Virus record (IMG/VR): IMGVR_UViG_2737471846_000027 | Location: 1 to 12,108 of that record | Length of the DNA stretch: 12,108 nucleotides | DNA from: a virus | Taxonomy: Duplodnaviria; Heunggongvirae; Uroviricota; Caudoviricetes | Strand: one strand, 5' to 3' | In this document: positions 6,381-6,604 of the stretch, piece by piece | Position numbering within the stretch: the stretch's first letter is position 1 | Layout: each line of letters begins with the position of its first letter | Notes under the pieces: model-generated | What the model was told of the DNA's origin: nothing | Database searches by the model: none | Seen by the model: the letters and a program-made list of their open reading frames with translations, nothing else | Translations under genes and position numbers: made by a program

Positions 6381-6604
6381 CTCTACCCATCTACCCGAAT
6401 GCTCATCATGTCAGTAATGGCGCGGCTTTCAGCGGGTAGATAGCTTTTGGTGCTCCTCTACCTGCCGTCTACCCTGCCATCTGAAACTGATAAAATCAGG
6501 TAGAAGAGGTAGAGAGCTTTTATTAGCCTTCTACCTAGCCCTCTACCCACTTATCATGTTGAATAATATGCGTTTATTTCATTCAGGTAGATGGGGTAGA
6601 GGGC
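6381..6604. repeat. Replication origin: at least 11 iterons (C)TCTACC(C)/GGGTAGA(G) in both orientations, arranged in pairs around an AT-rich segment
   Basis: Paired iterons are read directly at 6381–6396, 6434–6443, 6457–6474, 6499–6514, 6530–6548 and 6587–6604. An AT-rich stretch lies at 6549–6586. The cluster is immediately downstream of the primase gene, the usual position of satellite origins. Confidence 0.75.

What the first reader, a model, noticed from the sequence alone, without database searches (positions are those of the whole stretch)
6381..6604. Iteron-type replication origin directly downstream of the primase gene
At least eleven copies of (C)TCTACC(C) occur in paired, opposed orientations around an AT-rich segment. 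This is the usual architecture of PICI and P4-like origins bound by the cognate pri-rep protein, and it defines the island as an autonomous replicon.
Basis: seen in the sequence. Interest (0 to 1): 0.45.

Follow-up and report, generated by a model that had tools for sequence, protein, structure and literature searches.

The report
Satellite island replication origin, already known
The repeat cluster is real and is almost certainly the replication origin of an E. coli phage-satellite island closely related to EcCICFT073. That island's equivalent origin was mapped and tested in 2018, so this is a correct but ordinary finding.

Summary
TCTACC occurs 13 times in the window (2.8 expected), and 11 perfect copies lie in 6382-6600, where local composition predicts 0.1. 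The array starts 16 nt after the stop of the 584-aa helicase-initiator gene (6617-8371, minus strand).

Read in the sense of that gene, the layout is >> [38 nt, 74% AT] << >> [25 nt] << > [39 nt, conserved GC-rich block] <<.

The island lies next to phoQ, like EcCICFT073. Its Rep is 98% identical to the EcCICFT073 Rep. Fillol-Salom et al. 2018 showed that the EcCICFT073 rep-ori segment drives plasmid replication and needs both rep and ori.

- Across six diverged islands the iteron cores are invariant in 54 of 66 columns, against 24 of 128 for other origin columns.
- Reps with a different C-terminal winged-helix domain carry different iterons in the same layout (TGTTCAC(C), TGTTCAT).
- A RepA-type helicase swapped in at the same phoQ site comes with CCTCACTT repeats and no TCTACC in its intergenic region.

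No primase domain is detectable in the "primase". In P4, the element directly downstream of alpha is crr, not ori.

Verdict: real, interpretation supported, already known, low interest.

The parts
6382..6600 (.). Iteron array: 11 perfect TCTACC hexamers in three convergent modules. This is the predicted origin of replication.
   Evidence: Core columns are invariant across six diverged islands in 54 of 66 columns, against 24 of 128 for other origin columns.
6530..6600 (.). Rep-proximal module: iterons at 6530 and 6542 (+) and at 6586 and 6595 (-), flanking the AT-rich spacer.
   Evidence: The same unit (>> 35-40 nt AT-rich <) lies next to the rep stop in all D5-type relatives examined, and also in P4 ori.
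6548..6585 (.). AT-rich spacer (38 nt, 74% AT), the predicted DNA-unwinding site. It holds the least stable 25-mer inside the array (6559-6583).
   Evidence: The equivalent spacer is 74-89% AT in the relatives and 83% AT in P4 ori.
6457..6513 (.). Middle module: iterons at 6457 and 6468 (+) and at 6499 and 6508 (-), around a 25-nt spacer of 64% AT.
6382..6440 (.). Rep-distal module: iterons at 6382 and 6390 (+) and a single iteron at 6435 (-), around a 39-nt spacer that is not AT-rich (46% AT).
6410..6430 (.). Conserved GC-rich block CAGTAATGGCGCGGCTTTCAG inside the distal module. Its function is unknown.
   Evidence: Exact in L001, L002, L003 and L006. In the six-island alignment, 20 of the 25 columns for 6409-6433 are invariant.
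6617..8371 (-). rep: a 584-aa initiator-helicase annotated 'DNA primase family protein'. It is 98% identical to the EcCICFT073 Rep.
6644..6910 (-). Codes for Rep residues 488-576, the C-terminal winged-helix domain (Pox_D5) and predicted iteron reader.
   Evidence: Pfam PF03288. PDB 1ka8, deposited as 'putative P4-specific DNA primase', matches at E 8e-6. Iteron sequence follows this domain across relatives.
7121..7426 (-). Codes for Rep residues 316-417, the SF3 P-loop helicase core (DUF5906, Walker A GDGGSGKST).
   Evidence: The SaPI5 PriRep structure 7ola matches residues 188-432 at E 4e-15.
7982..8371 (-). Codes for Rep residues 1-130, an N-terminal alpha/beta domain of unknown function with no recognisable primase features.
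   Evidence: The same domain is fused to a RepA-type helicase in L012.
5612..6022 (-). Island-encoded single-strand DNA-binding protein, two genes downstream of the origin.
   Evidence: Pfam SSB, E 3.5e-15.
6019..6333 (-). Small conserved gene of unknown function (phrog_1231) that bounds the origin on the distal side. A conserved strong ribosome-binding site (GAGGGGGTG) sits just upstream of the ATG at 6333.

Best explanation
6382-6600 is the vegetative replication origin of an EcCICFT073-type phage-inducible chromosomal island integrated next to phoQ.

Proposed mechanism:
1. After induction and excision, the island's Rep protein (6617-8371) is made. Rep is an SF3, D5/P4-alpha-type self-loading helicase.
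2. Rep's C-terminal winged-helix domain recognises the TCTACC hexamers.
3. Rep molecules bound to convergent iteron pairs assemble on both sides of the 38-nt AT-rich spacer (6548-6585) and melt it.
4. The helicase loads itself there, with no DnaA and no separate loader.
5. The island SSB (5612-6022) coats the opened strands, and host enzymes carry out priming and synthesis.

What is shown here: the repeat array, its position, its conservation, the protein's domains, and the way iteron sequence changes together with the Rep C-terminal part.

What is shown in the literature for the 98%-identical EcCICFT073 Rep and its homologous origin: plasmid replication that depends on both rep and ori.

What is inferred by analogy with SaPI Rep and P4 alpha: binding through the winged-helix domain, melting at the AT-rich spacer, and self-loading.
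For: - Statistics: 11 of the window's 13 TCTACC copies lie within 219 bp (0.1 expected locally), and no shuffle reached 13.
- Position: the array starts 16 nt after the rep stop.
- Homology to a tested origin: the island shares its insertion site and gene order with EcCICFT073, and Rep is 98% identical. The origin DNA is about 79% identical with the cores retained. The EcCICFT073 rep-ori segment replicates a thermosensitive plasmid and needs rep and ori (PMC6092414).
- Purifying selection on cores: 54 of 66 core columns are invariant against 24 of 128 others, Fisher p 1e-17. In L004 and L005 the intergenic DNA has diverged too far for megablast to match it, yet all 11 cores keep their positions.
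- Rep domains: D5_N, SF3 P-loop and Pox_D5. PDB matches are SaPI5 PriRep 7ola and 1ka8, a C-terminal fragment of P4 alpha. Rep 141-573 is 41% identical to P4 alpha 324-756.
- Co-variation with the C-terminal domain: the Serratia Rep is 61% identical in the helicase core but only 36% in the winged-helix domain, and it carries CTGTTCAC. The Morganella Rep carries TGTTCAT. The vB_KppS-Ant Rep is 52% identical to P4 alpha in the C-terminal domain and carries TGTTCACC, the P4 iteron. All these arrays start 26-37 nt after the rep stop and share the same layout.
- Natural module swap: the island at the same phoQ site in O55:H7 RM12579 keeps the flanking genes but has a RepA-type helicase. Its intergenic region has 6 CTCACTT repeats and no TCTACC.
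- The layout matches the published definition of SaPI origins: 6-12 penta- or hexanucleotide iterons just after rep, an AT-rich region, and at least two iterons on each side facing opposite ways (PMC9371898).
Against: - Nothing was tested experimentally for this sequence.
- In the EcCICFT073 experiment, deleting ori reduced colony numbers significantly rather than being reported as abolishing them.
- The AT-rich spacer sits between iterons 9 and 10, not at the centre of the array, and a second, weaker spacer exists, so the melting site is a prediction.
- The rep-distal module has a conserved GC-rich spacer that the model does not explain.
- No primase domain was found in Rep, so the priming step is unassigned.
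- The comparative set is small: 7 TCTACC-type loci, 3 distant Reps, 1 module swap and P4.
Confidence: 0.9

Rival explanations
1. The array is a P4 crr-like, cis-acting replication enhancer bound by Rep, and DNA synthesis actually starts at a separate origin elsewhere in the island.
For: In P4, the iteron element directly 3' of alpha is crr (4291-4590), and the real ori is at 9086-9809. P4 crr consists of >> [35 nt, about 70% AT] << units like those in the window.
Against: There is no second TCTACC cluster in the window. The two other copies are isolated, one in phoQ outside the island and one inside int. The rep-proximal half of these arrays matches the layout of P4 ori itself: >> [35 nt, 83% AT] < [14] >>> in P4 ori against >> [40 nt, 78% AT] < [16] >>> in CFT073. 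The rep-ori fragment alone sufficed for plasmid replication in EcCICFT073.
Confidence: 0.05
2. The repeats are mainly a transcriptional operator. They would be binding sites through which Rep or another island protein controls the downstream genes (6019-6333, ssb, capsid module) or terminates and insulates rep transcription.
For: The array fills the whole gap between rep and the next gene in a one-directional operon. Iteron-binding initiators often also regulate transcription (general knowledge).
Against: No sigma-70-like promoter or intrinsic terminator was found in 6150-6750 on either strand, and there is no Rfam match. When the helicase type is swapped, the repeats change with it while the downstream genes stay the same. 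The homologous region is needed for replication. A secondary regulatory role is not excluded.
Confidence: 0.03
3. The cluster is a chance or decaying repeat with no present function.
For: None beyond the loss of two cores in one relative (FRIK2533 has 9 copies).
Against: Observed 11 copies against 0.1 expected. The cores are conserved against diverged flanks. The same layout recurs with different hexamers in distant relatives.
Confidence: 0.01

Closest known systems
EcCICFT073 pri-rep-ori replicon (Gram-negative PICI; Fillol-Salom et al. 2018, ISME J, PMC6092414)
   Same: Same insertion site beside phoQ and same gene order. Rep is 98% identical. Same TCTACC hexamer, 11 copies, starting 16 nt after the rep stop. 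Same AT-rich spacer and same conserved GC-rich block.
   Different: The origin DNA is only about 79% identical. One iteron is arranged differently: the window reads >> AT << >> << > <<, while CFT073 reads >> AT < >>> << > <<. The cargo also differs: the window lacks the perC gene that lies next to ssb in CFT073.
SaPI origins and SaPI Rep / PriRep (S. aureus pathogenicity islands; summarised in PMC9371898)
   Same: Short hexamer iterons (6-12) immediately after rep, an AT-rich region flanked by iteron pairs facing opposite ways, and an SF3 self-loading helicase with a C-terminal winged-helix domain.
   Different: Sequence similarity is only distant: 7ola aligns to residues 188-432 at E 4e-15. 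The window has three modules rather than one central AT-rich region. SaPI5 PriRep has a primase part, and none is detectable here.
Satellite phage P4 alpha protein with ori and crr
   Same: Rep 141-573 is 41% identical to alpha 324-756. The C-terminal domain matches PDB 1ka8, a C-terminal fragment of P4 alpha. P4 ori has the unit >> [35 nt, 83% AT] < [14] >>> and crr has >> [35 nt AT] <<, both like the window. crr lies directly 3' of alpha.
   Different: The iteron is TCTACC, not TGTTCACC. There is one cluster rather than ori and crr about 4.5 kb apart. Alpha's N-terminal 320-residue primase region has no detectable counterpart (hhalign probability 0.3%).
Iteron plasmid origins (pSC101, R6K, RK2, F, P1)
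   Same: Both have repeated initiator-binding sites next to an AT-rich unwinding element.
   Different: From general knowledge, plasmid iterons are 17-22 bp, mostly direct repeats, bound by RepA-like winged-helix initiators, and usually accompanied by DnaA boxes and a need for DnaB loading. Here the repeats are 6-bp cores in convergent pairs. No DnaA box, IHF site or GATC is present even allowing one mismatch, and the initiator is itself a helicase.

Membership tests
PICI/SaPI-type replication origin | Six to twelve short (5-6 nt) iterons immediately downstream of the rep reading frame | tested here: met
   11 perfect TCTACC hexamers in 6382-6600, the first 16 nt after the rep stop. The definition is from PMC9371898.
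PICI/SaPI-type replication origin | An AT-rich region within the array with iterons on both sides | tested here: met
   6548-6585 is 38 nt at 74% AT and lies between two iteron pairs. It holds the least stable 25-mer inside the array. It is off-centre, and a second spacer of 64% AT exists.
PICI/SaPI-type replication origin | At least two iterons on each side of the AT-rich region, facing opposite ways | tested here: met
   Iterons at 6530 and 6542 on + and at 6586 and 6595 on -.
PICI/SaPI-type replication origin | The adjacent gene encodes an SF3 helicase-initiator with a C-terminal winged-helix domain | tested here: met
   D5_N, DUF5906 and Pox_D5; PDB 7ola and 1ka8.
PICI/SaPI-type replication origin | Iteron sequence is specific to the cognate Rep | tested here: met
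   By comparison only. TCTACC occurs with window-type C-terminal domains (83-100% identical). TGTTCAC(C) or TGTTCAT occurs with C-terminal domains only 34-36% identical. CTCACTT occurs with a RepA-type helicase at the same site.
PICI/SaPI-type replication origin | Rep binds the iterons, and rep plus ori drive autonomous replication | not testable with these tools
   Shown for EcCICFT073 (Rep 98% identical, same iterons) in PMC6092414. Not shown for this sequence.
PICI/SaPI-type replication origin | The host element is a PICI: integrase at one end, a specific attachment site, one-directional operon, packaging and interference genes | tested here: met
   Integrase at 10879-12108, phoQ flank, Nu1-like gene, capsid and decoration genes, and gene order matching EcCICFT073. 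Two lambda-type cos sites are present, as published for EcCICFT073.
P4 ori/crr system | Initiator homologous to the helicase and origin-binding parts of P4 alpha | tested here: met
   41% identity over 434 residues, E 3e-112; 1ka8 match.
P4 ori/crr system | Initiator carries the alpha-type N-terminal primase (zinc finger plus the EGYATA and DxD motifs) | tested here: not met
   BLASTP gives no alignment to alpha residues 1-320. hhalign of the N-terminal profile against alpha 1-330 gives probability 0.3%. There are no Pfam or PDB sequence hits.
P4 ori/crr system | Type I iteron TGTTCACC | tested here: not met
   The iteron is TCTACC. TGTTCACC is found in P4 and vB_KppS-Ant.
P4 ori/crr system | Two separated cis elements (ori and crr), both carrying iterons | tested here: not met
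   The window has a single cluster. P4 has clusters at 4291-4590 and 9310-9413.
Iteron-plasmid origin (RepA / pi / TrfA type) | 17-22 bp direct repeats with DnaA boxes and a non-helicase Rep initiator | tested here: not met
   The cores are 6 bp in convergent pairs. There is no DnaA box with up to one mismatch. The initiator is an SF3 helicase.

The most novel reading that the evidence does not exclude
The protein that fires this origin may not be a primase at all. Its first 130 or so residues form a small alpha/beta domain with no primase signature. The same domain is fused to two unrelated helicase types (D5/SF3 here, RepA/AAA_25 in the O55:H7 island) at the same chromosomal site. These E. 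coli satellites may therefore use this shared domain to recruit host DnaG or a helper-phage factor, with the conserved GC-rich 21-nt block (6410-6430) acting as a separate priming or accessory-factor site. On this reading the single array combines what P4 splits into ori and crr.
Probability: 0.3. Interest if true: 0.35.

Novelty: already known. Interest (0 to 1): 0.12.

Why it matters
The result confirms that this island carries an intact PICI replicon, consisting of Rep, its cognate origin and an SSB. The island is therefore probably still able to replicate after helper-phage induction and is not a decayed remnant. For annotation, the result gives exact origin coordinates. It also gives a simple rule for this family: look for hexamer pairs right after the rep stop, whose sequence follows the Rep C-terminal domain. 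It adds no new biology beyond Fillol-Salom et al. 2018.

Tried and rejected
- **Promoter and terminator scan of 6150-6750:** none found on either strand.
- **Rfam and tRNA scans of the whole window:** nothing found.
- **Packaging-site reading:** the lambda-type cosN 12-mers lie elsewhere, at 2759 and 3626, so the array is not the packaging site.
- **Identity of the Rep N-terminal domain:** no answer.
  - Pfam at E up to 10 gave nothing.
  - A profile search of PDB sequences gave nothing significant.
  - A single-sequence AlphaFold model was poor, with pLDDT 53.
  - My by-eye alignment to the Toprim motifs of P4 alpha was not supported by hhalign (probability 0.3%), so I do not claim a degenerate Toprim domain.
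- **GTDB genome scan with Rep:** it returned only three loci, so the broad survey I wanted was not possible. The comparative set was built from E. coli genomes and the phage collection instead.
- **Iteron sequence in the 2018 paper:** the text does not contain it. The sequence is only in Fig. 2a, which is not held. I therefore could not check that the authors list TCTACC.

Full report
**1. What is in the sequence**

The interval 6334-6616 is the gap between two minus-strand genes. One is a 584-aa gene at 6617-8371, and the other is a small gene at 6019-6333.

TCTACC occurs 13 times in the 12.1-kb window on both strands. Dinucleotide-preserving shuffles give 2.8 on average and never reached 13 in 200 trials. 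Eleven copies lie in 6382-6600, where local base composition predicts 0.1. There are no one-mismatch copies nearby.

The two copies outside the array are isolated. One is in phoQ and one is in the integrase gene.

Read in the sense of the upstream gene, starting 16 nt after its stop codon, the layout is:

`>> [38 nt, 74% AT] << [16] >> [25 nt, 64% AT] << [16] > [39 nt, 46% AT] <<`

Partners within a pair are 8-12 bp apart centre to centre, about one helical turn.

**2. The genetic context**

- The window starts with phoQ (1-1461) and ends with a tyrosine integrase (10879-12108, minus strand).
- Between them lie a Nu1-like small-terminase homologue, lambda-type capsid and decoration genes, an SSB, the 584-aa gene and a DUF4222 gene.
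- This is the same insertion site and gene order as EcCICFT073 in E. coli CFT073, the model Gram-negative phage-inducible chromosomal island.
- A 551-bp query spanning the origin region (6200-6750) matches 905 of 5,426 complete E. coli genomes.

**3. The protein next to the array**

Pfam finds D5_N (residues 153-282), the SF3 P-loop domain DUF5906 (316-417) and Pox_D5 (487-575).

Sequence search of the PDB finds two matches:

| PDB entry | What it is | Rep residues matched | E-value |
|---|---|---|---|
| 7ola | SaPI5 PriRep cryo-EM structure | 188-432 | 4e-15 |
| 1ka8 | C-terminal fragment of P4 alpha, deposited as 'putative P4-specific DNA primase' | 488-576 | 8e-6 |

From my own knowledge, 1ka8 is the origin-binding winged-helix domain of P4 alpha.

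Rep residues 141-573 are 41% identical to P4 alpha residues 324-756. The protein is 98% identical to the EcCICFT073 Rep.

The 'primase' label comes from NCBIfam TIGR01613 'primase_Cterm', which is barely passed at 109.1 against a 108.7-bit cutoff and covers the helicase part.

The first 140 or so residues replace alpha's 320-residue primase region. They have no Pfam hit, no PDB sequence hit and no profile similarity to alpha residues 1-330.

**4. Evidence that the array is functional and cognate to Rep**

(a) Conservation. I aligned six diverged origins of this type: the window, CFT073, O157 FRIK2533, two other E. coli and Shigella flexneri.
- 54 of 66 iteron-core columns are invariant, against 24 of 128 for the other origin columns (Fisher p 1e-17).
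- In two strains the intergenic DNA has diverged so far that megablast matches only the rep coding end. All 11 cores are still in place there.

(b) Co-variation. More distant Reps carry different repeats in the same position and layout.

| Element | Repeat | Copies |
|---|---|---|
| Serratia aquatilis | CTGTTCAC | 9-10 |
| Morganella morganii | TGTTCAT | 10-11 |
| vB_KppS-Ant, an induced 16.5-kb element | TGTTCACC (the P4 type I iteron) | 8-11 |

- The repeat follows the C-terminal domain, not the helicase core.
- The Serratia Rep is 61% identical to the window Rep in the core but only 36% in the C-terminal domain. Its C-terminal domain is closer to that of P4 alpha, at 45%.

(c) A natural swap. 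The island at the same phoQ site in O55:H7 RM12579 keeps the flanking DUF4222, small-ORF and ssb genes.
- It has a RepA/AAA_25-type helicase in place of the D5-type Rep.
- Its intergenic region carries six CTCACTT repeats and no TCTACC.

(d) Experiment in the literature. Fillol-Salom et al. [quoted passage not shown] They show that the EcCICFT073 rep-ori segment maintains a thermosensitive plasmid at the restrictive temperature. Deleting rep abolished this, and deleting ori reduced it significantly (PMC6092414).

**5. Mechanism**

This section is inference by analogy. The SaPI Rep is described as a self-loading SF3 helicase whose C-terminal winged-helix domain binds iterons. It melts the origin without ATP and without a separate loader (PMC9371898). 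P4 alpha is the other model.

By that analogy, Rep bound to the convergent pairs flanking 6548-6585 opens this AT-rich spacer and loads onto it.
- This spacer holds the least stable stretch inside the array.
- Its counterpart is 74-89% AT in every relative and 83% AT in P4 ori.
- No DnaA box, IHF site or GATC is present, which fits independence from DnaA.
- The island's own SSB lies two genes downstream.
- Priming is unassigned.

**6. Comparison with P4**

The P4 record shows that the iteron element directly downstream of alpha is crr (4291-4590). The P4 ori (9086-9809) lies about 2 kb beyond the other end of the operon.

In alpha-sense orientation:
- P4 ori reads `>> [35 nt, 83% AT] < [14] >>>`. 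This is almost the same as the rep-proximal half of the CFT073-type array, `>> [40 nt, 78% AT] < [16] >>>`.
- P4 crr is built from `>> [35 nt AT] <<` units.

The island's single array therefore resembles P4 ori in layout and P4 crr in position. No second cluster exists in the window.

**7. Rival explanations**

- A crr-only role is unlikely, because there is no second cluster and the rep-ori fragment alone replicated in EcCICFT073.
- A purely transcriptional role has no support. There is no promoter or terminator, and the repeats follow the helicase rather than the downstream genes.
- Chance is excluded.

**8. Unexplained features**

- A 21-nt GC-rich block (CAGTAATGGCGCGGCTTTCAG, 6410-6430) fills the spacer of the rep-distal module. 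It is as conserved as the iterons.
- The N-terminal domain of Rep is shared between two unrelated helicase families in these islands.

**9. Verdict**

The origin type, its position and its function have been published for the near-identical EcCICFT073 replicon. Novelty is 'already known' and interest is low.

Noticed in passing
window 2759-2770 (+) and 3626-3637 (-): Two perfect lambda cosN 12-mers (GGGCGGCGACCT) with lambda-like flanks lie in inverted orientation on either side of the Nu1-like gene at 2950-3504. The same pair occurs in CFT073 (L001), L003 and L012. They correspond to the published cos1 and cos2 of EcCICFT073, of which only cos1 is needed for transfer (PMC6739421).
   Followed up: yes
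[not shown]
   Followed up: partly
window 6410-6430: The GC-rich block CAGTAATGGCGCGGCTTTCAG inside the origin is as conserved as the iterons across diverged islands. It is exact in four loci and has 1-2 changes in the others. It is not a hairpin, a promoter or a known host-factor site.
   Followed up: partly
L012 (NC_017656.1, 1430044-1451005) compared with the window: Islands at the same phoQ attachment site share the integrase, regulatory, DUF4222, ssb and capsid modules, but carry different helicase-plus-origin cassettes (D5-type with TCTACC, or RepA-type with CCTCACTT). The replication module therefore appears to be exchanged as a unit.
   Followed up: partly
window 6270-6333: The start of the gene just beyond the origin is ambiguous. 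A conserved strong ribosome-binding site (GAGGGGGTG) precedes the ATG at 6333, giving 104 aa. PGAP and the phrog_1231 alignment instead begin at the ATG at 6270, giving 83 aa. CFT073 uses the start next to the ribosome-binding site.
   Followed up: partly
window 9324-10268 (-): The 314-aa open reading frame here is probably not a real gene. In genomes that are 99.5% identical over this stretch, PGAP annotates a short Icd-like gene, an Icd-like pseudogene fragment and small hypothetical genes instead.
   Followed up: partly
L010 (LR881103.1, vB_KppS-Ant) 4253-4540: This 16.5-kb element, deposited as a phage from an induced prophage, has a Rep that is 51% identical to P4 alpha and an array of exact P4-type TGTTCACC iterons right after rep. 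It also has its own capsid, protease-like and portal genes, so it looks like a capsid-forming satellite with a P4-specificity replicon.
   Followed up: no
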